Below are positions 2,109 to 63,183 of a DNA stretch of 64,000 bases, one piece after another. The DNA is from Eledone cirrhosa. Lineage: Eukaryota. The notes under the pieces were generated by a model. The model saw only the letters and a program-made list of their open reading frames with translations. It was not told the origin of the DNA and ran no database searches. The stretch is taken from positions 57,102,001 through 57,166,000 of the forward strand of contig OZ024740.1 in the NCBI GenBank assembly GCA_964016885.1. The letters run 5' to 3'. The translations under genes and the position numbers were made by a program. Within the stretch, counting starts at the first letter, position 1. The number at the start of each line of letters is the position of its first letter.

Positions 2109-4025
2109 CTAACAGCGCTGCGATCGAATGTGGCTTTTTAGCCCAGCCAATGATCTAAAATGTCTTGCACAGAGTCGGCAACCAAAACATTCACTGGGAA
2201 TAGCCGGCTGTGGTTGGATTTCATGTACTTGTGCATGTCGCTTGAGCCCTCCTGCTGATTTACATTCCCTACCACATGCTTGGCAAGCATGATGAGTAGC
2301 ATCTCCAACAGCAGCCTGGTAGTCAACCACTGGTCTTACTTTATAACTGCGAAGATGACTTTCGAGTCCAGCTTTGCTTAGGCAGAGTCTCGCACAGACG
2401 CTGCATGTCAGCACTATAGGAGGACCCTCGCCGTCTAGAAGTGCAACAGCAATGCCCTTCCTCACATCCAGCTTTACTTTCTCGTATGCGATTCGAGATG
2501 CCTCAAAGGCAACTTTTCCCTCATATACAGTCTTTCTCCATTTATTACGATCAGCAGCAATATTTTCCCATGTATCAGCAGAGATGTTAGCGTCTTTCAA
2601 AGAGGCTTTCAAGGAATCCTTATACCTCTTTTTTGGTTTATATGGCAGTCGTGTTCCTTTAACTAACTCTCCATAAAAGAGTTGTTTTGGTATTCTAGAA
2701 TCCTTCATCCTGGCAAGGTGACCACTCCAACGGAGTCGTTGCTTAAGCACAAGAGCTTCTATACTGTCACACATAGAGCTTTCCAAAATCTCGACATCAC
2801 TGATGTGGTCCCTCCAGTGAACGCCATGGATGCGTCTGAGACACATCTGATGGAAACGCTCCAATTGCTTAAGGTAGTGTCGATATGTGACCCAGGTCTC
2901 GCAGGCATAAGGAAGACAAGAGAGCACACATGCCTTGTACACCTTTACCTTTGTCCTCCTGCATATGTCTCGCCGACCCCAGAGTCGCCTTTCTAGCTTT
3001 CCGAAAGCATCACTTGCTTTCCTAATCCTAAGTGAGAGTTCACTATCAAGTTTGCTGTATCGATTGACAGTGCTTCCCAGGTAGACAAACTGATCAACCA
3101 CTCCAAGTCGTTTACCATACACATAGATATTTGGTTCAGTGTACTGCTTACCAGGGGCAGGTTGGTACATGACGACGGTTTTCTAGAGACTGACAGTCAA
3201 TCCTATGGCAGTGCAAGCGTTAGAAAATGCATTCAAAATGTGCTGCATATCACTCTCTGTGTGCGCTACAAGATCGCAATCATCTGCATACAAGAGGTCT
3301 CTTATGATTGATGTAAATACTTTTGTCTTTGCAGCAAAGCGCCTGATGTTAAATATGCTGTCTGAGGTTCGATATCGGATGTAAACACCATGATCGCTAT
3401 TCCTGAATACAATACAGAAAACCATTGCAAAGTATATGGCAAACAGGGTCGGTGCTGGAATATCCCCCTGTTTCACTCCATTTTTTACTGAGATAGGCTC
3501 CGACATGTTACCTCCGACATTAACCCAAGCCTTCATGTCGTCATGGAAAGACCTAACTAAAGCAAGGAACTTATCAGGGCAACCAAGTTTCTGGAGAACC
3601 TTCCATAATGCATCTCTGTTAACAGTATCGAAAGCTTTTGTCAAATCGACAAAAACCTGATACAGATCCAAACCTTGTTCCATGCACTTCTCCTGGAGCT
3701 GTCTAGCTGAGAAGATCATATCAGTAGTGCCGCGTCCAGCACGAAAACCAGATTGGCTTTCAGGAAGAACACAATCTGCAATCTGTGTCAGCAGACGGTT
3801 CAGAAGCACCCTACATAAAACTTTCCCTTCGACAGAAATCTATGATATACCTCTGTAGTTCCCACAATCATTCCTGTTACCCTTTCCCTTGTACAAGACC
3901 ACCATTACTGCATCTCTCCAGTCCTCAGGTACGGATTCATTAGCCCATATCCTGCCAAACAAAGAGTGAAGATGTTGCAGGAGTCGCTCACCACCATATT
4001 GTAGGAGCTCAGCATGTATGCCATC
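2109..4025 (-). pseudogene. RTE-clade (BovB-like) LINE, 5'-truncated, RT with C-terminal C2H2 fingers
   Basis: ORFs 3840..4091, 3183..3809 and 2109..3170 share one frame, broken by TAG codons at 3840 and 3183. Motifs: NYRGIS, LPESQSGFR, FVDLTKAFDTV, GVKQG, LLYADD, FVYLGS, RLRWSGHLARM. Confidence 0.92.
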
Positions 4026-9437: not shown

Positions 9438-9787
<350 letters not shown>

Positions 9788-9919: not shown

Positions 9920-10488
9920 TCTCCCCCCACCCCCTATCCACACACGCACAGACCCTCCGACACACAAAAACACCCCCCACACACACCTTCCTGAACATGC
10001 AACCCCGTTCTTCCCCCAACCCTCACTTTCACATACACACACACACACACACACACGCACACCTAACCACACACACCACCTTCAGCCCTCCCCGCTCGGA
10101 CACCCCGTCTCCCTCTCCCCACTCCACCCGCCTCCACCTCTACTCACCCCACACCCTTCCACCACCTGTTTACCCCCCTTTTAATTTCAGTTTATTTTGA
10201 TCATGCCTTTATTTTTAAATGTTCTCATTCCTTGTATTTTGATCATGCTTTATTTTTATTTATTATTTATTATATTTTTGTCTTTATTTGTTAATTTTTC
10301 ATTCGCACCGTTTCCTTTCGCTATATGTCTCTCCACCACTCCCCTACACACCTTTTGAACTCTTACCTGAAGAAGGGCTTATGCCCGAAACGTCGTCCTC
10401 CACCTACCCCCCACTCTCCTGAGCGTGAATCTAATAAACATTTGTCGTACTGCCTCTCTGTTCTGTCCCTGTTCAATTTTTTATTATA
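9920..10488 (+). repeat. 5' pseudo-LTR of PLE1
   Basis: Near-identical to 14627-15194; contains an HHR-like core and AATAAA. Confidence 0.92.
10365..10396 (+). ncRNA. Minimal hammerhead motif in the PLE1 pLTR (second copy 15070-15101)
   Basis: CTGAAGA-a-GGGC(TTAT)GCCC-GAAA-CG-TC. Stem I is only ~2 bp. Minimal HHR motifs are established features of PLE pLTRs. Confidence 0.65.
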
Positions 10489-10951
10489 CAAAACACACGC
10501 TCACACGGCCTCCATCCTTGGAACTCACTTAACAACCGGCTCAACCCCGATCTAATCCGCCGTGACCTGTCTCCGAACTTTACACACCTTCCCACACTTT
10601 GTCTTTCCTTCCACGCATTACCTCTGTTTGATTTTGTTACCGTACCCCTTTTTTTTCCGTATATGATTCTTTGCCTGTGTTCCTACAATTGTATTCCATG
10701 ATTTTTTGTTCACGATCGCCTGTGTCATTACCTTTATGATATTTCTATGAATTTTTATTCACGATCGCCTGTGTTATTACCTTTATGATTTTTTGTCTTT
10801 AATTTTCCGGTGTTTACTCCCTCCCTACGTTTTTCTGGTTCCTTTTCCCATCCCCGTCTCTGCCTATCCTTCGCACTTATCCCTTCGTTCACTCCACCCC
10901 GCCCTCTCTTCTCCCCCCACCCCCCACCCCTGCTTTCACCCAACGCCCATC

Positions 10952-13712
10952 ATGGCCAACCTGAGATCCTTTCTCCACCAACTCCACAATCGCCTCAAAT
11001 TTTCCTCACCCCCCTCCTTCCACCCTGCTATCTCCCCTCCGCCCTTCAACTCTCCTACCTTCTCTTCGCCAAAACCCGGCACTCCAGCCACATCCATTTC
11101 CTCAGCCACTGCCTCCGCCTCCACCTTATCCCCCTTGGCTTCCGTCTACACTTCCACCCCTCCCCCGCTGCCTCCCCCTCCGCGCAACGTATCCTCACCC
11201 GATCCTCACGCCTTCTGATGCGCAACTCCATCCGCGCCTCCCGCTCCACCCTCCGCCTACTTGACCACCAACTGACCCCCACTCTCCTCCGCCTTTACTC
11301 CACCTGCCACCCCCTCCTCGCCCAAGCCATCCTCTCCTTCATCCACAACCTCAACCACAACCTCTTCTCGTTCCTCAGCTCCACCAAAGCCCGCAAGCTA
11401 CACTCACTCCTCCCAACCCCCCCATCCACCACCACCCGCCCATCCCCATACGCCCACCACTCCCCACCTCTCCCCCGACCGCCACCCCCACCCAATCTCC
11501 ACCCCTCACCACACCCTCCCTTCCCTCCCCTAACACCCAAACCCCACCCCTTGTTGTCACCATACCCCCTGACCTCCCCCTCTCCGCACCTGAGCGCTCA
11601 CTCCTTAGTAGAGGCCTTCGCTTCATACCCCACACTCCGCTCAGCGACGAGTTCCGCACCCGAACGGAAGTCGAGCGATTCGTGCGACGCACTAAGCTAC
11701 AGGCACATTTCGGTCAAACGCCACCGGCTCCGGACGCCCCAGACCCGTTTCTCGCCCTGGGCCGACGACCATCTTCTTGGACGCCGGCCCCAGGGCAATT
11801 TAGCACCCTGGACGCCTTCGTCGATGCCAGCCGTAGCGCAGTAAATCGTTTCGACTTCCGCCACCGTTCCAAACGGCACAACATCTCACGGGGCGAACTC
11901 CTCGCTCTCCGCTCCCTCCGTAGCCGAGATGACATCGTCATCAAACCGGCGGACAAGGGAGGCGCCGTGGTGGTATGGCGCGCGGACCTCTACAAGGCCG
12001 AAGCCCTCAGGCAGCTCTGTAACCCCCTCTTTTACCGCCCTCTACCCTCCGATCCCACCCCCCTCTACCAACAACAAGTCTCCTCCACCATCAAAGACCT
12101 TATCGCCTCCTCCCCCCCCCCCACCGCTTCCCACCTCATCGTCCGCACACCCCGCACCCTCACCATCTACTTCCTCCCCAAACTCCACAAACCCGACAAC
12201 CCCGGCCGTCCCATCGTCTCCGCTTGCAACTGCCCCACCGAACTCATCTCCGCCTTTCTCGACTCCCTCCTCGCCCCCCTTGTCACCACCCTCCCCTCCC
12301 ACATCTCTGACACCAACCACGCCCTGCGCCTTTTCGACTCCTTCACCTACCTACCCGGCCCTCAGCCATTCCTCTTCACCCTAGACATCAAGTCCCTCTA
12401 TACCGTCATCCCCCACGCCGACGGCCTTCGCGCCCTCAAACACTACCTCGACCTTCTCCCCTCCCCCATTCCCTCCACCCCCACCCTCCTTCGCCTCGCC
12501 GAGCTGGTCCTCACCCTAAATTGTTTCTCCTTCTCGGGTGAGTTTTACCAACAGGTCACGGGGGTAGCCATGGGCACAAGAATGGGCCCGAACTATGCCA
12601 ACCTTTTTGTTGGCCATGTTGATGCCCAAATCTTTGCCCAGTACACCGGCCCCACGCCCGAACTGTACGGTCGTTACATTGACGACTGTATCGGAGCCAC
12701 GACCCTCACCCGAGTACAGCTCGACTCCTTTCTCTCCTTCTTCTGCTCCTTCCACCCCTCCCTCCACTTCACCACCTCTATCTCCACCACCCACGTCCAC
12801 TTCTTGGACATCTCCGTCGCCTTCGACCCCTCCCACCACTCCCTCGTCACCTCCGCCTTCTTCAAACCCACCGACTCCCACTCTTACCTCGACTTCACCT
12901 CTTCCCACCCCACCCACACTAAACTCTCCATTCCCTACTCCCAACTTCTCAGGATCCGCCGCCTCTGTAGCCGAGATGCTGACTTCGAGTCCCAAGCCCT
13001 TTCCCTAGTCAGCCATTTCATCCGCAGAGGTTACCCCCCTCTCTCGTCCACACCGCTCTCACCCGCGCCCGTGCTATCCCCCGCTCTACCACCCTCACCC
13101 CACGCCACCGCACACCCACCCACCGTCTCCCCTTCCCCATCACCTACCACCCCTCCACCGCACCATCCGCCGCCTCTTCCGACACCTCCAGTCCGACCCC
13201 TCCACCTCCCACATCTTCCCAACCCCACCACTCCCCTCCTTCATACGCGCACGCAATCTCCGCACCCTCCTCGTCCACAGCTCCCTACCCCCCAACCCAC
13301 GCTCCGTTTCCCCCCCCCCGGTTCCTTCCCCTGTTCTAGGCCCCGCTGCAACACCTGTCCCCACATCACCAACACCACCACCTCCCAGGGTCCCAACGGC
13401 CACCCTCTCTCGGTCCGGCATGCCTTCCGCTGCACCTCCTCCAACCTAGTCTACGGACTTCGTTGCACGAGGTGCAGCGCGACTTATGTCGGACAGACGG
13501 GACGCCGCCTGGCGGACCGAGTCACGGAGCACCTCCGGGACATTCGTCTCGGGGGCAGTTCCCCCATCGCCCGCCACTTTGGTGGCCCTGGACACTCCGC
13601 ACACCATCTCACAGTCTGTGGCCTACTCCAGTGCCACGGAACACCCGCCCATCGCCTCACGGTCGAACAACGTACTATCTTCATCTTACAGACCCCCCCC
13701 CCCCCGGCCTGA
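10952..13712 (+). CDS. PLE reverse transcriptase + GIY-YIG endonuclease, frameshifted
   Basis: Motifs IKPADKGGAVVV, YFLPKLHK, GRPIVS, LDIKSLYT, GVAMGTRMGPNYANLF, RYIDD, FLD, CSRPRCNTC and NLVYGLRC..YVGQTGRRLADRVTEH. N-terminal motifs and the 13040-13300 segment lie in other frames; the shifts fall in C-rich runs. The start codon is inferred. Confidence 0.88.
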
Positions 13713-14626
13713 ACTCCCCACCCTTATTCCTCTAGCGTTCGACCCCCCCCCCCCCACTTATCCCCCACTAACACCACTAACACACCCCTCCTTTTCACCG
13801 CCCACCCCACACTAACAATACTAACACCCCCACTCCACCCCTCATCTAACCACCCTTCCCCAACTAACATACTAACATCCCTTCCCTCCCCTCTTCTCCT
13901 CCTCCCCCTCCTTATCACACGCACACACTTACACCACCCACCCCACACGCAACTAACATCACTAACACCCTCCAACCCCACGCACACGTACCCACACACC
14001 CTCGTACACCACCAACTCTACACACCCTACCCCCACTAACCCCCACTCACACCTGCATTCCACCCCTCCCCACCTCCCGTCTACTAACACCCACTAACAC
14101 CTCCTCACCAAACTACACACACACCAGTACACCACACTCCCTCCATAGAACCACACACACCCTTCTCTCCCCACTCCACACTCACTCATCCCACTAACAC
14201 CCCTACTAATACACACACACACACACACACACACCCTCCTCACTCCAACTCTCACACCTACCCATCCTCGCCTCCCTACCATTCCGCTGACTGCTGCTAT
14301 GCCCTTCCGACCACTGTCTCAGCACCCACTGACCACAGCACTCCCACTGCTGACCACTTCCTGTTGCGCGCGCACCCCACATCTCTCCTCTTCCGACCAC
14401 CGCTTCTTGGATTACCCACACGCGTTTTGACTTCCAACCAAAATCTCCATACATCCGTGTAACTTACCACTTTCAACCATCCTCTAACACCATCACCTAT
14501 ATAACTCACCCACACACACATCCCAAAACAAATTTTTTTATCCACACGCCACCCACACCCACATCACGCTTAAACCACACACACGTGCTTCCCACCACAT
14601 ATTTACACCCTCAGCCTCCTGATTCC

Positions 14627-15186
14627 TCTCCCCCCACCCCCTATCCACACACGCACAGACCCTCCGACACACAAAAACACCCCCCACACACACCTTCCTG
14701 AACATGCAACCCCGTTCTTCCCCCAACCCTCACTTTCACATACACACACACACACACACACGCACAGCTAACCACACACACCACCTTCAGCCCTCCCCGC
14801 TCGGACACCCCGTCTCCCTCTCCCCACTCCACCCGCCTCCACCTCTACTCACCCCACACCCTTCCACCACCTGTTTACCCCCCTTTTAATTTCAGTTTAT
14901 TTTGATCATGCCTTTATTTTTAAATGTTCTCATTCCTTGTATTTTGATCATGCTTTATTTTTATTTATTATTTATTATATTTTTGTCTTTATTTGTTAAT
15001 TTTTCATTCGCACCGTTTCCTTTCGCTATATGTCTCTCCACCACTCCCCTACACACCTTTTGAACTCTTACCTGAAGAAGGGCTTATGCCCGAAACGTCG
15101 TCCTCCACCTACCCCCCACTCTCCTGAGCGTGAATCTAATAAACATTTGTCGTACTGCCTCTCTGTTCTGTCCCTGTTCAATTTTT

Positions 15187-15194
<8 letters not shown>
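14627..15194 (+). repeat. 3' pseudo-LTR of PLE1
   Basis: Direct copy of 9920-10488, ending at TTTTTTATTA into (TA)n. Confidence 0.92.
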
Positions 15195-36934: not shown

Positions 36935-38681
36935 AACAAAAACAGGAACCTATCCAACTGCATAATAGGCAGCATGGATGTGGTATCACTGTATCCATCC
37001 ATTAACATTGATTTTGCTGTGGAAAAATGTGTGGAGATGATCATTGAGAGTGAGGTGGAGTTCTGCGACGTCGACCCAGACGAACCGGGCCTTCTACTTA
37101 GACTTACCTACGACACTGACTACCTAGACAGCCATGACCTTAGACGTTTCTGCACTAGTGGACCCATAAGAGGTAGACGCCCCACCATAACCTCAATGGC
37201 TAAAAAGACTCCCATGGGAAGGTGGATTGGGTAGACCAAAGCTATACGGACCCCCCCCCCCCCCAAAAAAAAAACAATGATCAGGTAAGAAAAATGGTCG
37301 CACATGCAATAGGGGCTAGTATCAAAACTACCCTAAAGGGCCACATATTCAATTTCAACGAGAAGATCTACACCCAAAATGAGGGAGCAGCCATTGGCGT
37401 CAGCATAGCTGGTGATGTTGCCAACCTTTTTATGGTATGGTGGGAAAGGAGACTTAAAGATCTCCTTAATGAGAGCTCCATAAACCTCATCATGTACTCT
37501 CGTTATGTAGACGATATCAATATAGTTATAAGACATCCCCACTAGAAAGCACTAACAAGTTTGATTTAGAACGTAGCACGATGGAAAGCATCCAGCAGAT
37601 AGCTAATTCCATACACCAGAGTATAACTGTAACTATCGACTTCCCTTCCAAACACCCTAACAATAGACTACCTGTATTAGACACAGAACTCTGGATTAAC
37701 ACTATAGACGAGAGAGCCCAAATTCTCCACTCACACTATACTAAACCCATGAACTCCAAATACCTGATACTCAAAAACTCACCAATGTCCAGTAGTGCTA
37801 AGTTTAATATTCTGATCGCAGACTTGGTACGAGTGATGAAGAATGTGTCCCGCATGTGCGACCCAACAGAAATAGAAAGACACATCCAACACTTCATCAA
37901 CTGCATGCAGTTTTCTGGCTACAACCAAAGAGACAGAGTTAGAGTATACGAAGGAGCCATGGAGAAGTATAAGACCCTCATAGAACTGGACATGAAAGGA
38001 ATTTGCCCATTATAGAGGAGCAAATCATGGAATAGCTTAGATAGGGCTAGACATAAGATAGGGAAAGCCACCTCATGGTACGACAACCAGAGATACCAGA
38101 GTGTCATGTTTGTGGACGCTACCCCTGGAGGGAAATTAGCTAACCAGTGTAGAAAAACCCTGAGAAAGACCCACTTAAAGATTAAGGTGGTAGAAAAGCC
38201 AGGAACCACCATAAAATCCCTGATCAGCAAAAGCTACCCTTTTAAGAAAACCCACTGTACTAATAAGAAATGTATCATATGTAAGGTAAACCCCCGGTTA
38301 AACTGTAAAACTAGAAACGTAGTCTATAGCATAAGATGTACAGAGGGTACTTGCAGAAACATGACAACAACATACATAGGCGAGACAGCTCGTAGCATAG
38401 GTGAAAGGATAGACCAACACTGGGGGGAACTAAAAGGTCGAAAAAACGGGTCAGTACTATACGAACATGCCAGACAACAACACGACGGTAACATAGACAA
38501 CATAGAAATTAGAGTAATATCTAAACGACCCAGCAGATAGGCAAATCAGAGAGGCCAGTGAAATAGAACTTAGAAGACCAAGGCTGAACAGAAAGAATGA
38601 ATAGAATAACAACAACACCCAAACAAAGAACACTGACCTAAGAGAAGTATAAATAAATAAATAAATAAATAAATAAATAGA

Positions 38682-38716
<35 letters not shown>

Positions 38717-39282
38717 ATAGATAAATAAATAAATAAATAAATAAATAAATACATACACAAGCACAATAACAACAAACACATATAAACGCACACTAGTAAA
38801 GATAGAATACATTAACCAATACACAGTCACCCAATCACGAGCACACATCAAAGAAAACACTATACACACACGCAAACGCATGCGCAAAGAAGACAAAATA
38901 AAATAAATAAATAAATAAATAAATATATAAACAGACTAAATAAAGATGGCGTAGAAAATACAATGTAACGGGAGGAAACAATAGCACCACTGACGATGTT
39001 GCAGATGTGCAACGAAAGAACTTTGATAAACTATATATATATGTGTTTGTGTCTATATTGTATCTGTATTATTTTTGACCGTTGTTCAGTCAATGGCAAC
39101 ATTGAGGACCGAATAAATTAGATTACCGATATACAAGACACAGAAGCGAAAAGCGAAAACCAACCAAACAGTGAGTGTGTTCTGTTATTAATTCTGGCAA
39201 TATTACACAAATATGACCCTCCCCAAGTATAACAATATTTGTTTCGACACACGATTTTATATAAAAAACCTCGCAAAACTAT
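36935..39282 (+). mobile_element. PLE family 2, 5'-truncated and disrupted RT + GIY-YIG
   Basis: MDVVSLYPSI, GAAIGVSIAGDVANLFM, RYVDD, LPVLD and NVVYSIRC..YIGETARSIGERIDQH across four ORF pieces. The 3' region is shared with 54465-54960. Confidence 0.9.
38988..39025 (+). ncRNA. Minimal hammerhead motif in the PLE2 3' region (copy at ~54712-54749, minus)
   Basis: CTGACGA-t-GTTGCA(GATG)TGCAAC-GAAA-GAAC-TT; core and stem II are conserved in both copies. Stem I is short. Confidence 0.6.
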
Positions 39283-39294
39283 TTATATATATAT

Positions 39295-39540
39295 ATTAGA
39301 AATATAAGCTTTCACCGTATTTTTGACTAAAGAAATTTTTAGCCTGATAATGGGGTTTAGAACCCTCAGAGAAATGGAAAAAGATGAGTATTGACGTACA
39401 TGTACGCCAATACTCATCTTTTTCCATTTCTCTGAGGGTTCTAAACCCACTATCAGGCTAAAAATTTCTTTAGTCAAAAATACGGTGAAAGCTTATATTT
39501 CTAATTTCAAACCCGCTCACAGTTTCAAAACATGCTTACA
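39295..39540. repeat. Fold-back insert: 211-bp palindrome plus tail
   Basis: 39295-39505 is self-complementary with a few mismatches, apex GTACATGTAC, followed by a ~35-bp tail and a TA run. Confidence 0.9.
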
Positions 39541-40125: not shown

Positions 40126-40481
40126 TAACGCCACACAGCGGTGCTCGGCAGAAGCAATGGGGACAATCATCGATGCATTTCGAACTAAACTGGTTCTCGT
40201 CAGAACGATCCCTCCCGCAACTGCCGGACTTTGAAAACAGGCGAAAATATATAGTTTTTTCAACTATGTAAATGAGGTAATTAATCTCATTTGCATATGA
40301 AGCTGAATAAGTTGACTCAAATTAATATAGAATAGAATTAGAATTTAGCTTCGAATATAGCTTCGAATATAGCTGTATACCAATATGTATGAAAGACACT
40401 GGCAACTAACGCCACACAGCGGTGCTCGGCAGAATCAAGGGGTCAATCGTCGATGCATTTCGAAGTCAACTGGTTCTCGTC
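40126..40481 (-). mobile_element. Retrozyme-like element, 281-nt monomer in partial tandem
   Basis: TAACGCCACACAGCGGTGCTCGGCAG..TGGTTCTCGTC at 40126-40201 and 40407-40481; the repeat overlaps an HHR. Confidence 0.75.
40166..40209 (-). ncRNA. Minimal type I hammerhead ribozyme
   Basis: ATCGTT-CTGACGA-GAAC(CAGTTTA)GTTC-GAAA-TGCA-TC-GATGAT: 6-bp stem I with G.U pairs, palindromic ATGCAT stem III, AUC triplet. Confidence 0.75.
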
Positions 40482-44249: not shown

Positions 44250-44530
44250 AAAGAGTGAAGAATAACATGTTTGGCTGTACAACAAGGGGCTTTATTTCAG
44301 GTATTGACAATTGTTTCATTGATCAGGTGAGTCTAGAGGTCGCTAATCGCTTGAAGTTGCGTCACTCGATCTCCATTACATTATTTACCTCTGATCAACT
44401 CATCAGAAAAAGAAAATATAAAAATATAAAAATATAGCGCCCTCTAAACTCACCTGATCGATGAAACAATTGTCAATACCTGAAATAAAGCCCCTTGTTG
44501 TACAGCCAACCATGTTACTCTTCACTCTTT
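44250..44530. repeat. Fold-back insert with ~95-bp arms
   Basis: 44250-44345 is inverted relative to 44435-44530. The arms carry GAAACAATTGTC. Confidence 0.85.
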
Positions 44531-47547: not shown

Positions 47548-47798
47548 GAACGTTCAGTGTTTATTTCAGGTTTCGCTGTCTGAAGACCTCAGGCTATCAT
47601 AATTGATAGTCCTCAGTGAAATAGGTATAACGGAGTTTTAAAAAACCTGAATCAACTGAATATGGCTTCCGATCTCTTATTAATTTATAATGCTCCGTCT
47701 TGTATCATTTATACAGGTCGTTGATCGCTTCTTTTTATCTGCTTCACAAGCGACAGGCCATAGTGTAATCCGCACATCCTAGTTCTGTTAACCCCTTA

Positions 47799-53470: not shown

Positions 53471-53805
53471 TCTTCTAAGTAGAACCATAAAGAATTAGCT
53501 TTTAAAGAATTTCCCTTTTCTTTAAATCCATCAACCATGACTGACCCCCAACGATCTTATAGACACCTGCAATATAGGCATTGTTAGCTTAAGAGAAACT
53601 TATAAATAAGGAGTGGCACCCCATTCTGAACTTGTTTACAGAATTCTTTCTGCCTTTCTTACTCTAAATATAAATTATAGCTTTAAAGAATTAGCTTTTT
53701 ATGAATTCCCTTTTCTATCAACCAATGACCTCTACCCATCCCACTCCCTACCCTCTCCTACCACCTGAAGAGACCTATAAATACCATATTTATTTTTTGA
53801 TACCC

Positions 53806-53856
53806 AGATTCCTGATGATTTCTAAAGAATGAAACAGTTCTAGTCCTGTAGAATCT
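53806..53856 (+). ncRNA. Type I hammerhead ribozyme
   Basis: AGATTC-CTGATGA-tTTCT(AA)AGAAt-GAAA-CAG(TTCTAGTC)CTG-TA-GAATCT; GUA triplet. Stem II is weak. Confidence 0.65.
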
Positions 53857-53948
53857 CATCTATATTAAATCTTTTATACTCTGCTGTGTATTGAGTACCT
53901 TATTAACTGTGGTTACCTCCGATTCAACCCGGAATAACGTATATATAT

Positions 53949-54313
53949 CGTCGTCCCCCACCAACACCCCACTCTCCAGAGCATGAAATTAATAAACATT
54001 CGTTGTACTGCCTCTCTGTTTTGTCCCTGTTCAAATTTTTCCATTATATATAATACACGCTCACACGGCTTCCATTCCTTGGAACATAACTTAACTACCG
54101 GCTCAACCCCGATCTAATCCGCCGTGACCTTTCTCCGAACTTTACACACCTTCCCACACTTGGTCTTTCCTAACTCTGTTCCCACACACTTCTCACCTGA
54201 GGAAGGGTTTATGCCCGAAACGTCGTCCCCCACCAACGCCCCACTCTCCAGAGCGTGAAATTAATAAACATTCGTTGTACTGCCTCTCTGTTTTGTCCCT
54301 GTTCAAATTTTTC

Positions 54314-54320
<7 letters not shown>
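53949..54320 (+). mobile_element. Retrozyme-like miniature of the PLE1 family, 272-nt monomer in partial tandem
   Basis: CGTCGTCCCCCACC..TGTTCAAATTTTT at 53949 and 54221. The body matches 10391-10608. HHR core CTGAGGA-aGGGT(TTAT)GCCC-GAAA-CGTC at 54197-54224. TA runs lie on both sides. Confidence 0.82.
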
Positions 54321-54359
<39 letters not shown>

Positions 54360-54384
54360 TTGGGTGTATATGTATATGTATATG

Positions 54385-54450
<66 letters not shown>

Positions 54451-54464
54451 ACGGCGATGAATTA

Positions 54465-56017
54465 GTTTTGCGAGGTTTTTTATATGAAATCGTGTGTCGA
54501 AACAAATATTGTTATACTTGGGGAGGGTCATATTTGTGTAATAATATTGCCAGAATTAATAACAGAACACACTCACTGTTTGGTTGGTTTTCGCTTCTGT
54601 GTCTTTTATATCGGTTAATTTAATTGTTCGGTCCTCAATGTTACCATTGACTGACCAACGGTCAAAAATACAGATACAATATAGACACAAACACATATAT
54701 ATATAGTCTAACAAAGTTCTTTCGTTGCACATCTGCAACATCGTCAGTGGTGCTATTATGTTTCCTCCTGTTGTATTGTATGCCTACGCCATCTTTATTT
54801 AGTCTGTTTATTTTTTTTTTTGTCTTCTCTGCGCATGCGTTTGCGTGTGTGTATAGTGTTTGATGTGTGTTCGTGTTTGGCTGACTGTGTATTGGTTATT
54901 GTATTCTATCTTAGTTTATTAGTGTGTGTTTATATGTGTTTGTTGTTATTGTGCTTATGTATGTATTTATACTTCTCTAAGGTCAGTATTGTTTGTTTGG
55001 GTGTTGTTATTCCATTCATTTTTTCTGTTTAGCCTTGGCCTTCTAAGTTCTATTTCGCTGGCCTCTCTGATTTGCCTATCTGCTGGGTCATTTCTATGTT
55101 TAGATATTATTCTAATTTCTATGTTGTCTATGTTACCGTCGTGTTGTTGTCTGGCATGTTCGTATAGTACTGATCCGTTTTTTCGTCCTTTTAGTTCCGC
55201 CCAGTGTTGGTCTATCCTTTCACCTATGCTACGAGCTGTCTCGCCTATGTATATTGTTGTCATGTTTCTGCAAGTACCCTCTGTACATCTTATGCTATAG
55301 ACTACGTTTCTAGTTTTACAGTTTATCCAGGGGTTTACTTTACATATTATACATATCCTATTAGTACAGTGGGTTTTCTTAAAAGGGTAGCTTTTGCTGA
55401 TCAGGGATTTTATGGTGGTTCCTGGCTTTTCTACCACCTTAATCTTTAAGTGGGTCTTTCTCAGGGCCTTTCTACACTGGTTAGCTAATTTCCTTCCAGA
55501 AGTAGCGTCTACAAACATGACACTCTGGTATCTCTGGTTGTCGTACCATGAGGTGGCTTTCCCTATCTTATGTCTAGTCCTATATAAGCTATTCCATGAT
55601 TTGCTCCTGTATAATGGGCAAATTCCTTTCATGTCCAGTTCTATGAGGATCTTATACTTCTCCGTGGCTCCTTCGTATACTCTTTGGTTGTAGCCAGAGA
55701 ACTGCATGCGGTTGTTGAAGTGTTGGATGTGTCTTTTCATTTTTGTTGGGTCGCACATGCGGGACACGTTTTTCATACTCATTTTGGGTGTAGATCTTCT
55801 CGTTGAACTTGAATATGTGGCCCTTTAGGGTAGTTTTGATACTAGCCCCTATTGCATGTGCGGCCATTTTTCTTACCTGATCATTGTTTTTTTTTTGGGG
55901 GGGGGGGTCCGTATAGCTTTGGTCCACCCAATCCACCTTCCCATGGGAGTCATTTTTGCCATTGAGGTTATTCAACGAGAAGATCTACACCCAAAATGAG
56001 GGAGAAGCCATTGGCGT
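54465..56017 (-). mobile_element. Second copy of PLE family 2 with an internal deletion and a short inverted 5' piece
   Basis: Matches ~37187-39282 but lacks ~37384-37834. 55971-56017 is an inverted copy matching 37354-37400. Confidence 0.9.
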
Positions 56018-56720: not shown

Positions 56721-56734
56721 TTTTATTCTCTGTA

Positions 56735-59700
56735 ACTCTCTTTCCCTGTGCCTCTCATTAATTCTCTCTAGCTCTCTTTCCCTACGTCTCTAATTCATTC
56801 TCTCTAGCTATCTTTCACTACGTCTCTCATTCATTGTCTCTAGCTCTCTTTCCCTGTGTCTCTCATTCATTCTCTATAGCTCTCTTTCCCTGTGTCTCTC
56901 ATTCATTCTCTCTAGCTCTCTTTCCCTGTGTCTCTCATTCATTCTCTCTAGCTCTCTTTCCCTGTGTCTCTCATTCATTCTCTCTAGCTCTCTTTCCCTG
57001 TGTCTCTCATTCATTCTCTCTAGCTCTCTTTCCCTGTGTCTCTCATTCATTCTCTCTAGCTCTCTTTCCCTACGTCTCTCATTCATTCTCTCTAGCTCTC
57101 TTTCCCTGGGTCTCTCATTCATTCTCTCTAGCTCTCTTTCCCCGTGTCTCTCATTCATTCTCTCTACCTCTCTTTCCCTGGGTCTCTCATTCATTCTCTC
57201 TAGCTCTCTTTCCCTGTGTCTCTCATTCATTCTCTCTAGCTCTCTTTCCTTACGTCTCTCATTCATTCTCTCTAGCTCTCTTTCCCTGGGTCTCTCATTC
57301 ATTCTCTCTAGCTCTCTTTCCCTGTGTCTCTCATTCATTCTCTCTAGCTCTCTTTCCTTACGTCTCTCATTCATTCTCTCTAGCTCTCTTTCCCTGTGTC
57401 TCTCATTCATTCTCTCTAGCTCTCTTTCCCTGTGTCTCTCATTCATTCTCTCTAGCTCTCTTTCCATGTGTCTCTCATTCATTCTCTCTAGCTCTCTTTC
57501 CTTACGTCTCTCATTCATTCTCTCTAGCTCTCTTTCCCTGGGTCTCTCATTCATTCTCTCTAGCTCTCTTTCCCTGTGTCTCTCATTCATTCTCTCTAAC
57601 TCTCTTTCCCTACGTCTCTCAATCATTCTCTCTAGCTCTCTTTCCCTGTGTCTCTCATTCATTCTCTCTAGCTCTCTTTCCCTGTGTCTCTCATTCATTC
57701 TCTCTAGCTCTGTTTCCCTGTGTCTCTCATTCATTCTCTCTAGCTCTGTTTCTCTACGTCTCTCATTCATTCTCTCTATCTCTCTTTCCCCGTGTCTCTC
57801 ATTCATTCTCTCTAGCTCTCTTTCCCTGGGTCTCTCATTCATTCTCTCTAGCTCTCTTTCCCTGTGTTTCTCATTCATTCTCTCTAGCTCTCTTTCCTTA
57901 CGTCTCTCATTCATTCACTCTAGCTCTCTTTCCCTGTCTCTCATTCATTCTCTCTAGCTCTCTTTCCCTGTGTCTCTCATTCATTCTCTCTAGCTCTCAT
58001 TCCCTACGTCTCTCATTCATTCTCTCTAGCTCTCTTTCCCTACGTCTCTCATTCATTCTCTCTAACTCTCTTTCTCTACGTCTCTCAGTCATTCTCTCTA
58101 GCTCTCTTTCCCTACGTCTTTCATTCATTCTCTCTAGCTCACGTTCCATACGTCTTTCATTCATTCTCTCTAGCTCTCTTTCCCTGTGTCTCTCATTCAT
58201 TCTCTCTAGCTCTCTTTCCCTACGTCTCTCATTCATTCTCTCTAGCTATCTTTCCCTGTCTCTCTCATTCATTCTCTCTAGCTCTCTTTCCATGTGTTTC
58301 TCATTCATTCTCTTTAGCTCTCTTTCCCTACGTATCTCATTCATTCTCTCTAGCTCTCTTTCCCTGTGTCTCTCATTCATTCTCTCTAGCTCTCTTTCCC
58401 TGTGTCTCTCATTCATTCTCTCTAGCTCTCTTTCCTTACGTCTCTCATTCATTCTCTCTAGCTCTCTTTCCCTACGTCTCTCATTCATTCTCTCTAGCTC
58501 TCTTTCCCCGTGTCTCTCATTCATTCTCTCTAGCTCTCTTTCCCTGGGTCTCTCATTCATTCTCTCTAGCTATCTTTCCCTGTGTCTCTCATTCATTCTC
58601 TCTAGCTCTCTTTCCTTACGTCTCTCATTCATTCTCTCTAGCTCTCTTTCCCTGTGTCTCTCATTCATTCTCTCTAGCTCTCTTTCCCTGTGTCTCTCAT
58701 TCATTCTCTCTACCTCTCTTTCCCTGGGTCTCTCATTCATTCTCTCTAGCTCTCTTTCCCTGTGTCTCTCATTCATTCTCTCTAGCTCTCTTTCCTTACG
58801 TCTCTCATTCATTCTCTCTAGCTCTCTTTCCCTGGGTCTCTCATTCATTCTCTCTAGCTCTCTTTCCCTGTGTCTCTCATTCATTCTCTCTAGCTCTCTT
58901 TCCTTACGTCTCTCATTCATTCTCTCTAGCTCTCTTTCCCTGTGTCTCTCATTCATTCTCTCTAGCTCTCTTTCCCTGTGTCTCTCATTCATTCTCTCTA
59001 GCTCTCTTTCCCTGTGTCTCTCATTCATTCCCTACGTCTCTCATTCATTCTCTCTAGCTCTCTTTCCCTACGTCTCTCATTTATTCTCTCTAACTCTCTT
59101 TCTCTACGTCTCTCAGTCATTCTCTCTAGCTCTCTTTCCCTACGTCTTTCATTCATTCTCTCTAGCTCACGTTCCATACGTCTTTCATTCATTCTTTCTA
59201 GCTCTCTTTCCCTGTGTCTCTCATTCATTCTCTCTAGCTCTCTTTCCCTACGTCTCTCATTCATTCTCTCTAGCTCTCTTTCCCTGTCTCTCTCATTCAT
59301 TCTCTCTAGCTCTCTTTCCATGTGTTTCTCATTCAGTCTCTTTAGCTCTCTTTCCCTACGTATCTCATTCATTCTCTCTAGCTCTCTTTCCCTGTGTCTC
59401 TCATTCACTCTCTCTAGCTCTCTTTCCCTGTGTCTCTCATTCATTCTCTCTAGCTCTCTTTCCTTACGTCTCTCATTCATTCTCTCTAGCTCTCTTTCCC
59501 TACGTCTCTCATTCATTCTCTCTAGCTCTCTTTCCCTGTGTCTCTCATTCATTCTCTCTAACTCTCTTTCCCTACGTCTCTCATTCATTCTCTCTAGCTC
59601 TCTTTCCTTGTGTCTCTCATTCATTCTCTCTAGCTCTCTTTCCCTGTGTCTCTCATTCATTCTTTCTAGCTCTCTTTCCCTACGTATCTCATTCATTCTC

Positions 59701-62700
59701 TCTAGCTCTCTTTCCCTGTGTCTCTCATTCATTCTCTCTAACTCTCTTTCTCTACGTTTCTCATTAATTCTCTTTAGCTCTCTTTCCCTACGTCTCTCAT
59801 TCATTCTCTCTAGCTCTCATTCCCTACGTCTCTCATTCATTCTCTCTAGCTCTCTTTCCCTGTGTCTCTCATTCATTCTTTCTAGCTCTCTTTCCTTGCG
59901 TCTCTTATTCATTCTCTCTAGCTCTCTTTCCCTACGTCTCTCATTCATTCTCTCTAGCTCTCTTTCCCTGTGTCTATCATTCATTCTTTCTAGCTCTCTT
60001 TCCTTACGTCTCTCATTCATTCTCTCTAGATCTCTTTCCCTACGTCTCTCATTCATTCTCTCTAGCTCTCTTTCCTTACCTCTCTCATTCATTCTCTCTA
60101 GCTCTCTTTCCCTACGTCTTTCATTCATTCTCTCTAGCTCACTTTCCATACGTCTTTCATTCATTCTCTCTAGCTCTCTTTCCCTACGTCTCTCATTCAT
60201 TCTCTCTAGCTCCCTTTCCCTGTCTCTCTCATTCATTCTCTCTAGCTCTCTTTCCATGTGTTTCTCATTCATTCTCTTTAGCTCTCTTTCCCTGTGTCTC
60301 TCATTCATTCTCTCTAGCTCTCTTTCCTTACGTCTCTCATTCATTCACTCTAGCTCTCTTTCCCTGTGTCTCTCATTCATTCTCTCTAGCTCTCTTTCCC
60401 TGTGTCTCTCATTCATTCTCTCTAGCTCTCATTCCCTACGTCTCTCATTCATTCTCTCTAGCTCTCTTTCCCTACGTCTCTCATTCATTCTCTCTAACTC
60501 TCTTTCTCTACGTCTCTCAGTCATTCTCTCTAGCTCTCTTTCCCTACGTCTTTCATTCATTCTCTCTAGCTCACGTTCCATACGTCTTTCATTCATTCTC
60601 TCTAGCTCTCTTTCCCTGTGTCTCTCATTCATTCTCTCTAGCTCTCTTTCCCTACGTCTCTCATTCATTCTCTCTAGCTATCTTTCCCTGTCTCTCTCAT
60701 TCATTCTCTCTAGCTCTCTTTCCATGTGTTTCTCATTCATTCTCTTTAGCTCTCTTTCCCTACGTATCTCATTCATTCTCTCTAGCTCTCTTTCCCTGTG
60801 TCTCTCATTCATTCTCTCTAGCTCTCTTTCCCTGTGTCTCTCATTCATTCTCTCTAGCTCTCTTTCCTTACGTCTCTCATTCATTCTCTCTAGCTCTCTT
60901 TCCCTACGTCTCTCATTCATTCTCTCTAGCTCTCTTTCCCCGTGTCTCTCATTCATTCTCTCTAGCTCTCTTTCCCTGGGTCTCTCATTCATTCTCTCTA
61001 GCTATCTTTCCCTGTGTCTCTCATTCATTCTCTCTAGCTCTCTTTCCTTACGTCTCTCATTCATTCTCTCTAGCTCTCTTTCCCTGTGTCTCTCATTCAT
61101 TCTCTCTAGCTCTCTTTCCTTGTGTCTCTCATTCATTCTCTCTAGCTCTCATTCCCTACGTCTCTCATTCATTCTCTCTAGCTCTCTTTCCCTACGTCTC
61201 TCATTTATTCTCTCTAACTCTCTTTCTCTACGTCTCTCAGTCATTCTCTCTAGCTCTCTTTCCCTACGTCTTTCATTCATTCTCTCTAGCTCACGTTCCA
61301 TACGTCTTTCATTCATTCTTTCTAGCTCTCTTTCCCTGTGTCTCTCATTCATTCTCTCTAGCTCTCTTTCCCTACGTCTCTCATTCATTCTCTCTAGCTC
61401 TCTTTCCCCGTCTCTCTCATTCATTCTCTCTAGCTCTCTTTCCATGTGTTTCTCATTCAGTCTCTTTAGCTCTCTTTCCCTACGTATCTCATTCATTCTC
61501 TCTAGCTCTCTTTCCCTGTGTCTCTCATTCACTCTCTCTAGCTCTCTTTCCCTGTGTCTCTCATTCATTCTCTCTAGCTCTCTTTCCTTACGTCTCTCAT
61601 TCATTCTCTCTAGCTCTCTTTCCCTACGTCTCTCATTCATTCTCTCTAGCTCTCTTTCCCTGTGTCTCTCATTCATTCTCTCTAACTCTCTTTCCCTACG
61701 TCTCTCATTCATTCTCTCTAGCTCTCTTTCCCTGTGTCTCTCATTCATTCTCTCTAGCTCTCTTTCCCTGTGTCTCTCATTCATTCTTTCTAGCTCTCTT
61801 TCCCTACGTATCTCATTCATTCTCTCTAGCTCTCTTTCCCTGTGTCTCTCATTCATTCTCTCTAACTCTCTTTCTCTACGTTTCTCATTAATTCTCTTTA
61901 GCTCTCTTTCCCTACGTCTCTCATTCATTCTCTCTAGCTCTCTTTCCCTACGTCTCTCATTCATTCTCTCTAGCTCTCTTTCCCTGTGTCTCTCATTCAT
62001 TCTTTCTAGCTCTCTTTCCTTGCGTCTCTTATTCATTCTCTCTAGCTCTCTTTCCCTACGTCTCTCATTCATTCTCTCTAGCTCTCTTTCCCTGTGTCTA
62101 TCATTCATTCTTTCTAGCTCTCTTTCCTTACGTCTCTCATTCATTCTCTCTAGATCTCTTTCCCTACGTCTCTCATTCATTCTCTCTAGCTCTCTTTCCT
62201 TACCTCTCTCATTCATTCTCTCTAGCTCTCTTTCCCTACGTCTTTCATTCATTCTCTGTAGCTCACTTTCCATACGTCTTTCATTCATTCTCTCTAGCTC
62301 TCTTTCCCTACGTCTCTCATTCATTCTCTCTAGCTCCCTTTCCCTGTCTCTCTCATTCATTCTCTCTAGCTCTCTTTCCATGTGTTTCTCATTCATTCTC
62401 TTTAGCTCTCTTTCCCTATGTATCTCATTCATTCTCTCTAGCTCTCTTTCCCTACGTCTCTCATTCATTCTCTCTAGCTCTCTTTCCCTGTGTCTCTCAT
62501 TCATTCTCTCTAGCTCTCTTTCCCTGTGTTTCTCATTCATTTTCTCTAGCTCTCTTTCCCTACGTCTCTCATTCATTCTCTCTAGCTCTCTTTCCCTGTG
62601 TCTCTCATTCATTCTCTCTAGCTCTCTTTCCCTGTTTTTCTCATTCATTCTCTCTAGCTCTCTTTTCCTACGTCTCTCATTCATTCTCTCTAGCTCTCTT

Positions 62701-62935
62701 TCCCTGTGTCTCTCATTCATTCTCTCTAGCTCTCTTTCCCTACGTCTCTCATTCATTCTCTCTAGCTCTCTTTTCCTACGTCTCTCATTCATTCTCTCTA
62801 GCTCTCTTTCCCTACGTCTCTCATTCATTCTCTCTAGCTCTCTCTCCCTACGTCTCTCTTTCATTCTCTCTAGCTCTCTTTCCCTACGTCTCTCATTCAT
62901 TTTCTCTAGCTCTCTTTCTCTACGTCTCTCATTCA
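56735..62935. repeat. 36-bp satellite, roughly 170 units
   Basis: Consensus TCTCTCATTCATTCTCTCTAGCTCTCTTTCCCT(GT/AC)G. It produces the 12-aa periodic ORFs on both strands. Confidence 0.97.
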
Positions 62936-63183
62936 TCTCTCTATCTCTCTCTCCCTGTGTCTCTCTTTCATCTCTCTATCTCTCTCTCCCTGTGTCTCTC
63001 TTTCATCTCTCTATCTTTCTCTCCCTGTGTCTCTCTTTCATTCTCTCTATCTCTCCCTGTGTCTCTCTCGTATTCTGTATCTCGCTGTTCACCCTTTTCT
63101 GTCTTTCTCTTACAACGTGCATAGTATTTATGGCATCAAACTCTTCGTTTTTCTTCTCGCATCAGTCTTTCTTTTATATTCTG

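What the first reader, a model, noticed from the sequence alone, without database searches (positions are those of the whole stretch)
53949..54320. 272-nt mini-element derived from the PLE1 family, starting at the ribozyme cleavage region
Seen: the monomer is the PLE1 pLTR end plus the first ~120 bp of 5' UTR (10391-10608), then ~35 nt of linker back to the HHR core, with all coding sequence removed. The insert starts at CGTC, directly after GAAA and within 4 nt of the predicted GUC cut. Inference: this shows a retrozyme arising from an autonomous PLE by deletion while keeping the cis elements needed for mobilisation. It is diverged from PLE1, so it may be a self-propagating family.
Basis: partly seen in the sequence, partly recalled or inferred. 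Interest (0 to 1): 0.8.

Follow-up and report, generated by a model that had tools for sequence, protein, structure and literature searches.

The report
Rearranged Penelope retroelement stub with hammerhead
This 372-base insertion is a head-to-tail rearranged scrap of the non-coding end of an abundant Penelope-type jumping gene, likely a rare copying accident rather than a self-spreading ribozyme element, although it keeps the pieces that such an element would be predicted to need.

Summary
The anatomy is real: 53949-54320 is 1.37 copies of a 272-nt unit in a TA run, about 89% like the non-coding ends of PLE1, an RT/GIY-YIG Penelope-like element in the window. (1) There is no novel linker: 710 raw reads and one contig show 54172-54190 is native pLTR of a common sister subfamily, so the junction is 54171|54172. 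(2) The insert starts 4 nt upstream of the predicted cut, so a cleaved RNA end cannot have set it. Read depth has no step at the cut, and 0 of 19 alignment starts in relatives lie near it. (3) At most 19 of about 729 reads can cross the junction, and the divergence from PLE1 is mostly subfamily sequence. Best reading: a single or low-copy product of a reverse-transcriptase template jump on uncleaved RNA. It has one hammerhead core with a 2-bp stem I and fails the published retrozyme definition. A small family is not excluded (no genome held). Retrozyme origin from pLTRs is already proposed in a 2026 preprint, and this scan reached a similar verdict on another genome (e1-7814458).

The parts
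53949..54320 (+). Whole insertion: 1.37 copies of a 272-nt unit from a sister subfamily of PLE1
53949..54048 (+). First copy of the pLTR 3' end, 5'-truncated at hammerhead position 15.2 (CGTC, 4 nt before the predicted cut after 53952); has no catalytic core
   Evidence: cut register from relatives
54049..54171 (+). First 123 nt of the parent's 5' UTR (PLE1 10489-10609; 10 differences in 123 columns)
54064..54126 (+). Predicted three-way stem-loop right behind the AC-rich stretch that follows the element's 3' end; same fold in PLE1 (10504-10564); candidate protein-recognition element (inferred)
   Evidence: z -3.30; 1 of 200 shuffles as good; PLE1 z -3.22, 0 of 200; depth peak at 54100-54139 in X1 and X4
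54171..54172 (+). The true junction, 5' UTR to pLTR; no microhomology when PLE1 is used as proxy for both donors
   Evidence: (alignments stop at 54171 and start at 54172)
54172..54196 (+).
   Evidence: (710 X12 reads, one X5 contig)
54195..54226 (+). Only complete minimal type I hammerhead motif: core 54197-54220, extra nucleotide after A9, 4-bp stem II (one private U-G wobble at 54208), loopless palindromic stem III, 2-bp stem I, predicted cut after 54224
   Evidence: activity untested
54221..54320 (+). Second copy of the pLTR 3' end, ending at the same position as PLE1's 3' end; 3 differences from the first copy in 104 columns
53940..53948 (.). Short TA remnant of the target site, the tail of the host repeat on the left
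   Evidence: 592 X12 reads run on into TA behind 53948
54321..54450 (.). TA/TG microsatellite on the right of the insertion (target; hides any target-site duplication)
53740..53939 (+). Host repeat: 3' end of another, more abundant family with a hammerhead-like motif (core 53812-53834); its left boundary was not mapped
9920..15193 (+). PLE1: Penelope-like element of Neptune type between TA runs; pLTRs 9920-10488 and 14627-15193 (one substitution, one 2-nt indel); ATG at 10952; RT plus C-terminal GIY-YIG frame 11265-13712; hammerheads at 10367 and 15072

Best explanation
The insertion is a partial-tandem scrap of a sister subfamily of the Penelope-like element PLE1, likely made once, or a few times, by a template jump of the element's reverse transcriptase on RNA that had likely not been cut by its hammerhead. 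Inferred steps: the endonuclease nicked the TA tail of an older repeat. Reverse transcription began at the family's usual 3' end (54320) and copied 149 nt, through the hammerhead to 25 nt beyond its core (54172). It then jumped without homology to a point 123 nt into the 5' UTR of the same or another transcript, copied 223 nt more, and stopped 4 nt past the cut position at the foot of the stem II hairpin. Shown: the pieces, their order, the junction position, the TA target, the start upstream of the cut, and the low share of the junction in the reads laid. Inferred: the jump itself, single origin, and that the copy is now decaying rather than spreading.
For: The unit is one contiguous parent segment joined head to tail; reads place the break exactly at 54171|54172. 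The junction is rare. In X12, 710 reads continue from 54172 into normal pLTR, while only 19 cover 54162, of which 10 carry the PLE1 letter: upper bound 9 to 19 of about 729 (1.3-2.6%). In X1 the whole depth at 54162 (2091) is one contig with the PLE1 letter, and its alignment stops at 54171. The template was uncut: the 4 nt before the cut are present. PLE1 likewise starts 475 nt upstream of its cut. X12 depth is 1222 over the core and 1220 just after it, with 17 at the start of the first repeat. In the window, the 8 other core-bearing copies with a same-family partner all extend 25 to 245 nt upstream of the core. 0 of 19 alignment starts in related elements fall within 5 nt of the cut (one contig-end hit left out). 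At 7 of the 8 printed positions where the second repeat differs from PLE1, the PLE1 letter holds only 0.2-50% of X1 depth, so the divergence is mostly subfamily sequence. Three letters (53983, 54208, 54238) are near-absent in reads, as expected of private decay. The blunt junction fits a reverse transcriptase that primes at non-homologous internal sites, and uncleaved RNA was the main substrate in vitro (PMC11167929). Partial tandems are the normal PLE arrangement (PMC8557442, PMC3846280).
Against: Sequence alone cannot tell a jump from a later deletion or from copying round a circle. No printed read or contig was seen to cross the junction; 437 loose ends, 11 joints and 101 differences were not printed. 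X12 is a RAD library with uneven sampling, and assembled contigs drop rare paths, so a family of a few to some tens of copies could hide. About half of the X12 reads in the 5' UTR (12 of 23 at 54096, 9 of 19 at 54162) do not carry the PLE1 letter, and X4 shows depth 22.4 at 54162 with no PLE1 letter. The unit keeps just the pieces a mobile derivative would need, and a 5' end within 4 nt of the cut has about 3% chance if uniform over the unit (post hoc). The sister subfamily's own 5' UTR beyond the break is unknown, so lack of microhomology rests on PLE1 as proxy.
Confidence: 0.52

Rival explanations
1. A full-length copy of the sister subfamily inserted here and later lost about 4.4 kb, including the whole ORF, by a DNA-level deletion.
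For: Order of parts equals a full element with its middle removed. Internal deletions of Penelope copies are reported as common in a rotifer (PMC3846280, passages). The two repeats differ at 3 of 104 columns against 1 substitution and 1 indel in about 568 for PLE1 (Fisher p 0.013 to 0.028), so the copy has had time.
Against: Those deletions are described as microhomology-mediated, and none is seen here with PLE1 as proxy. Copies bearing the 5' UTR are only about 1-2% of 3' ends (X12 16-29 against 1222; X1 118- to 269-fold fewer). Both breakpoints would have to fall in narrow non-coding zones at the two ends.
Confidence: 0.24
2. The 272-nt unit is a young, low-copy non-autonomous family: a master dimer elsewhere gives a cut-to-cut circle or multimer, the PLE protein binds the retained stem-loop, primes at the usual 3' end and copies 1.37 turns.
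For: Unit size is in the retrozyme range (170-400 nt, PMC7229834). Terminal redundancy. Geometry parallels the minimal in vitro template of the anole element: cut to priming site 96 nt here against 85-92 nt by my arithmetic from PMC11167929, with a needed region just downstream, kept here as a stem-loop. A contig nearly identical to 54023-54123 has depth 208 in X1, well above the 9-60 of most other printed pieces, so this 5' UTR version is multi-copy.
Against: No printed contig crosses the junction in X1 and at most 1.3-2.6% of X12 reads can. One core only and a 2-bp stem I; the core is predicted to be tied up in a competing hairpin. The linear monomer is no more self-paired than shuffles (z 0.26). 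The fold in which the single core cuts the upstream half-site costs 18.3 kcal/mol over the free minimum. Minimal PLE hammerheads cleave weakly and not as monomers (PMC4209133); 8 of 9 tested Xenopus dimers did not cleave (10.64898/2026.07.22.740005).
Confidence: 0.18
3. The junction is an assembly error joining two repeat copies.
For: No printed record spans the junction; the best runs hold only 55-57% of the sampled words.
Against: Nine X12 reads from another sample lack the PLE1 letter at 54162, which fits the window's letter; an X4 contig matches 54026-54129 without a difference; the two repeats carry distinct private changes; both ends are clean TA junctions.
Confidence: 0.04

Closest known systems
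EN+ Penelope-like elements of Neptune type: partial-tandem insertions, pLTRs and minimal hammerheads (Cervera and de la Pena 2014, PMC4209133; Craig et al. 2021, PMC8557442; Arkhipova et al. 2013, PMC3846280)
   Same: Parent has RT followed by GIY-YIG with a CX4CX2C linker, direct pLTRs, a minimal type I hammerhead with the extra base after A9 and a palindromic stem III, and TA-run targets. The stub is a partial tandem of its non-coding end; a 2-bp helix I is also described for the D. virilis element.
   Different: The stub's repeat unit includes 123 nt beyond the usual 3' end, longer than the described 30-40-nt tail, and no ORF sequence at all.
Metazoan non-LTR retrozymes (Cervera and de la Pena 2020, PMC7229834; Li, Clavereau and Pollet 2026 preprint, 10.64898/2026.07.22.740005)
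   Same: Non-coding unit of 272 nt with a type I hammerhead, terminal redundancy, and homology to a PLE pLTR. The preprint reports such homology for 24 of 57 Xenopus families against Repbase, 21 of the 22 matched elements being PLEs.
   Different: Only 1.37 units and one core (the preprint requires two consecutive units with complete motifs); minimal rather than canonical hammerhead; no excess self-pairing; no evidence of many copies or of circular RNA.
Poseidon element of the green anole, PAc, studied in vitro (Frangieh et al. 2024, PMC11167929)
   Same: AT-rich target, priming internal to the RNA some 90 nt downstream of the hammerhead cut in an AC-rich stretch, a needed region just downstream, and uncleaved RNA as substrate.
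   Different: Different clade; in PAc that region is the start of the ORF, here it is 5' UTR. The role of the stem-loop here is inferred by analogy only.
Non-autonomous Chlamys PLEs such as MRC1 of Chlamydomonas (Craig et al. 2021, passage)
   Same: Non-coding PLE derivatives with pLTRs and head-to-tail copies, similar to autonomous families at the 3' end.
   Different: Those are shown multi-copy, active families and most Chlamys lack canonical hammerheads; here a family is not shown.

Membership tests
EN+ Penelope-like element (parent PLE1) | RT followed by C-terminal GIY-YIG endonuclease | tested here: met
   RVT_1 at E 4e-4, below Pfam's cutoff; 629 homologues, best 51% identity at E 2e-204, all 120 listed with RT-related Pfam hits and several with PF01541
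EN+ Penelope-like element (parent PLE1) | Direct pseudo-LTRs holding a minimal hammerhead | tested here: met
   9920-10488 / 14627-15193 at 99.5%; cores at 10367 and 15072
Neptune/Nematis-type PLE | CX2-5CxxC linker before GIY-YIG; microsatellite targets | tested here: met
   C535, C540, C543 invariant in 18 of 18 aligned sequences; TA runs at both ends; feature as given in PMC8557442
Neptune clade | Placement in an RT tree with reference elements | not tested
   no labelled reference sequences were fetched
Non-LTR retrozyme | At least two consecutive units each with a complete hammerhead | tested here: not met
   1.37 units, one core at 54197-54220
Non-LTR retrozyme | Canonical type I hammerhead (helix I about 6 bp) | tested here: not met
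   stem I is 2 bp, stem III loopless; 13 motifs in related loci show 2-5 bp
Non-LTR retrozyme | Non-coding unit of about 170-400 nt | tested here: met
   272 nt
Non-LTR retrozyme | Multi-copy family sharing the unit | tested here: inconclusive
   junction at most 1.3-2.6% of X12 reads and not seen in printed X1 contigs; no assembly to count low copy numbers
Non-LTR retrozyme | Highly self-paired monomer RNA | tested here: not met
   linear cut-to-cut monomer -35.2 kcal/mol, z 0.26, 115 of 200 shuffles as good; circular fold -29.4 without shuffles
Non-LTR retrozyme | Self-cleavage and accumulation as circular RNA | not testable with these tools
   bench assay needed; no RNA holder listed
Non-LTR retrozyme | Homology to a PLE pLTR (as proposed in the 2026 preprint) | tested here: met
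   88-90% to PLE1

The most novel reading that the evidence does not exclude
This is a retrozyme caught at birth. One template jump has cut out exactly the parent's hammerhead, priming site and protein-binding stem-loop as a 272-nt unit, which now spreads at low copy number as a circle copied 1.37 times round by the PLE protein. The four retained bases CGUC are the substrate half that lets the downstream core cut the upstream site.
Probability: 0.15. Interest if true: 0.6.

Novelty: new member of a known kind. Interest (0 to 1): 0.25.

Why it matters
As a one-off it is an ordinary by-product of a very abundant retroelement family. It is mildly useful because it shows, base by base, how a retrozyme-sized unit can come out of a PLE's pLTR/5' UTR boundary in a single step, and it points to a conserved stem-loop behind the priming site as a testable recognition element for a Neptune-type protein. 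If the junction proved multi-copy with circular RNA, it would be a direct parent-daughter pair for the proposed PLE origin of retrozymes, which so far rests on co-occurrence and pLTR similarity.

Tried and rejected
Whole-genome count of the junction: no genome is held for this window. Rfam scan of the window at E up to 1: 86 matches, none a hammerhead family and none within 53949-54320; uninformative for minimal motifs. Exact scan of JGI metagenomes for the family's hammerhead motif: 0 matches. Related loci from metagenomes: 80 kept of 314 confirmed; none resembles the mini beyond a 28-nt core match in L010. No RNA holder listed for the stretch. Look-up of earlier findings by sequence gave one unrelated note and none for this genome. 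Rejected: my first idea that the linker was patched together from PLE1 5' UTR and pLTR bits, overturned by the reads. Rejected: that two of the three repeat differences are CpG decay; reads show A or C at 54238, so only 53983 is. Rejected: the second GUC (54225-54227) as cut site, as it leaves no stem I and relatives use the first. Rejected: a spliced intron as cause, as neither donor shows GT or AG at the break. The compensatory pair reported comes from a misplaced gap in a two-sequence alignment and is not counted.

Full report
Observation. The stretch 53949-54320 lies between a 9-nt TA remnant and a long TA/TG run. BLAST within the window gives 53949-54171 against 10391-10609 at 200 of 223 letters, and 54191-54320 against both pLTR ends of PLE1 at 88-89%. 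The first 104 letters recur 272 nt later with three differences (53966/54238, 53983/54255, 54042/54314). The insert is therefore 1.37 units of 272 nt. These matches are far beyond chance (E 1.5e-80).

The parent. [quoted passage not shown] It has 629 homologues among 8000 candidates scored, the best at 51% identity. By the features given in PMC8557442 (passages read) this is a Neptune-type element; I built no tree. Its ATG (10952) is not in frame with the long frame, so this copy is probably not functional.

The 'linker' is not new. I laid 4 of the 14 listed runs on 53740-54318 at 85% likeness: X1 and X4 (contigs, organism A), X12 (raw RAD reads, organism A) and X5 (contigs, organism B). In X12, 710 reads align from 54172 rightwards and run on leftwards into one consensus (agreement 0.95), which matches PLE1 10328-10357 at 29 of 30 letters by eye. 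One X5 contig does the same. So 54172-54196 is the normal pLTR of a common sister subfamily, PLE1 lacks 16 nt of it, and the real junction is 54171|54172. The unit is then a single contiguous piece of the parent, from 25 nt before the hammerhead core to 123 nt into the 5' UTR, joined head to tail. That arrangement results equally from a deletion, a template jump or copying round a circle. With PLE1 as proxy for both donors there is no microhomology and no splice signal at the break.

The junction is rare. At 54162, ten letters before the break, all X1 depth (2091) is one contig with the PLE1 letter, and its alignment ends at 54171. In X12, 19 reads cover 54162, 10 of them with the PLE1 letter; at most 9 to 19 of about 729 reads can cross the junction (1.3-2.6%). 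Hammerhead-bearing 3' ends outnumber the 5' UTR about 40- to 75-fold in X12 and 118- to 269-fold in X1, as expected of 5'-truncated copies. Against my reading: no printed record shows the junction either way. 437 loose ends, 11 joints and 101 differences were not printed, RAD sampling is uneven, and contigs drop rare paths. About half of X12's 5' UTR reads and all of X4's depth at 54162 (22.4) lack the PLE1 letter, and a contig nearly identical to 54023-54123 has depth 208 in X1. A family of low copy number is therefore not excluded.

Divergence from PLE1 is mostly subfamily sequence. The second repeat differs from PLE1 by 9 substitutions and 2 gaps. For 8 of the 9 positions one search prints counts. 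At 7 of them the PLE1 letter holds 0.2-50% of X1 depth (and roughly a third to two thirds of X12 reads), so the mini's letter is a common family letter. Three letters (53983, 54208, 54238) are near-absent in reads and look like private changes. The repeats differ more than PLE1's pLTRs (3/104 against 1/567 substitutions, Fisher p 0.013; counting the indel, p 0.028), so the stub is probably the older insertion.

The 5' end does not mark cleavage. In 13 motifs found in the 80 related loci, 10 have the loopless form in which the cut follows GAAA by four letters, with stem I of 2-4 bp. The same register gives a cut after 54224 (53952 in the first repeat) and a 2-bp stem I. The insert starts at 53949, so it holds the four letters that cleavage would leave on the other product; its template was uncut or religated. 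PLE1 begins 475 nt upstream of its own cut. X12 depth is 1222 over the core and 1220 behind it, with 17 at the start of the first repeat, so at most about 3% of sampled copies begin there. The 8 other core-bearing copies in the window with a same-family partner extend 25-245 nt upstream of the core (lower bounds). In related elements, 0 of 19 alignment starts lie within 5 nt of the cut (nearest 13 before and 25 after; one hit at a contig end and one 27-nt core-only hit left out; these are alignment edges, not verified junctions). One end within 4 nt of the cut has about 3% chance if uniform over the unit, noticed after the fact, and the adjoining stem II hairpin offers a stop that needs no cleavage (inference).

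What it keeps. Behind the usual 3' end lies an AC-rich stretch and then a three-way stem-loop (54064-54126) that folds better than shuffles in the mini and in PLE1 (z -3.30 and -3.22); contig depth peaks over its 3' half. In the anole element PAc, reverse transcription primes internally in an AC-rich stem-loop 111-118 nt into the ORF, the cut is 26 nt into the ORF, the first 172 nt are needed, and unprocessed RNA is the main substrate (PMC11167929, parts 1-2 of 4 read). Here the cut-to-end distance is 96 nt. But the locus has one core, predicted to be tied up in a competing hairpin. The monomer is not unusually self-paired (z 0.26), and the fold in which the single core cuts the upstream half-site lies 18.3 kcal/mol above the minimum.

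Mechanism. Most likely (0.52) a template jump during target-primed reverse transcription into the TA tail of an older repeat: 149 nt copied from the usual 3' end, a jump without homology to 5' UTR position 123, then 223 nt more. Rivals: later deletion of a full-length copy (0.24), a young low-copy circle-borne family (0.18), assembly error (0.04).

What is known. Minimal hammerheads in pLTRs, their weak dimer-dependent cleavage and the idea of circles as templates for more-than-unit copies are in PMC4209133 (parts 1-2 of 4 read). Retrozymes with canonical motifs, tandem arrays and self-paired circles are in PMC7229834 (passages and sections 13 and 17 read). The 2026 preprint 10.64898/2026.07.22.740005 (parts 1-3 of 5 read; its supplements were not seen and may list junction-level cases) already argues that animal retrozymes derive from PLE pLTRs. 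Partial tandems, tails, internal deletions and non-autonomous PLEs are in PMC3846280 and PMC8557442 (passages). My five literature searches listed no base-level parent-daughter junction of this kind, but the library lacks most subscription papers.

Verdict. A real feature, a new member of a known kind: a rearranged non-coding PLE stub that is retrozyme-like in size and parts but fails the retrozyme definition and shows no sign of abundance. Interest 0.25; the birth-of-a-retrozyme reading keeps probability 0.15 and would deserve 0.6.

Noticed in passing
window 53792-53868: The left flank is the 3' end of another, more abundant family with a hammerhead-like motif (core 53812-53834, 6-bp stem I, predicted cut after 53850). 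Reads show head-to-tail joints from about 53868 back to 53792, a 74-77-nt repeat of little more than the ribozyme (X1 depth 3160 in 3 contigs; 69 X12 reads from 16 starts). Tandem ribozyme arrays thus exist elsewhere in this genome and are a better retrozyme candidate than the mini.
   Followed up: partly
whole window: The hammerhead core pattern matches 24 times against 5.5 expected from shuffles (0 of 100 shuffles reach it); several families occur as truncated 3' ends next to TA runs (34188, 35005, 41618; 48049, 50964, 52705; 38990, 54720).
   Followed up: partly
window 9473-9576, 47571-47621, 40178-40203 with 40407-40481, 39295-39505, 44250-44530: Short palindromes or inverted pairs, the first three with hammerhead-like cores; they look like inverted-pLTR stubs of PLE insertions.
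   Followed up: no
window 54064-54126 and 10504-10564: Conserved three-way stem-loop directly behind the element's 3' end; contig depth over its 3' half is three to eight times that of neighbouring 5' UTR in X1, suggesting it is kept in more distant subfamilies.
   Followed up: partly
L045, L052, L056, L076, L026: In one related family, five alignment starts cluster 117-137 nt upstream of the hammerhead core, a possible preferred 5' boundary unrelated to the cut.
   Followed up: no
window 37187-39284 and 54460-55971: Two copies, on opposite strands and 87-96% alike, of another element with a GIY-YIG-like frame (38016-38540, 54967-55824) and a hammerhead-like core (38990, 54720).
   Followed up: no
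window 56725-63067: Array of about 176 copies of a 36-nt unit, 90% matched, with very long stop-free frames that are likely a by-product of its composition.
   Followed up: no
window 2109-3839 (- strand): Two adjacent frames that read like the RT and C-terminal part of a LINE-type retrotransposon (by eye; not searched).
   Followed up: no
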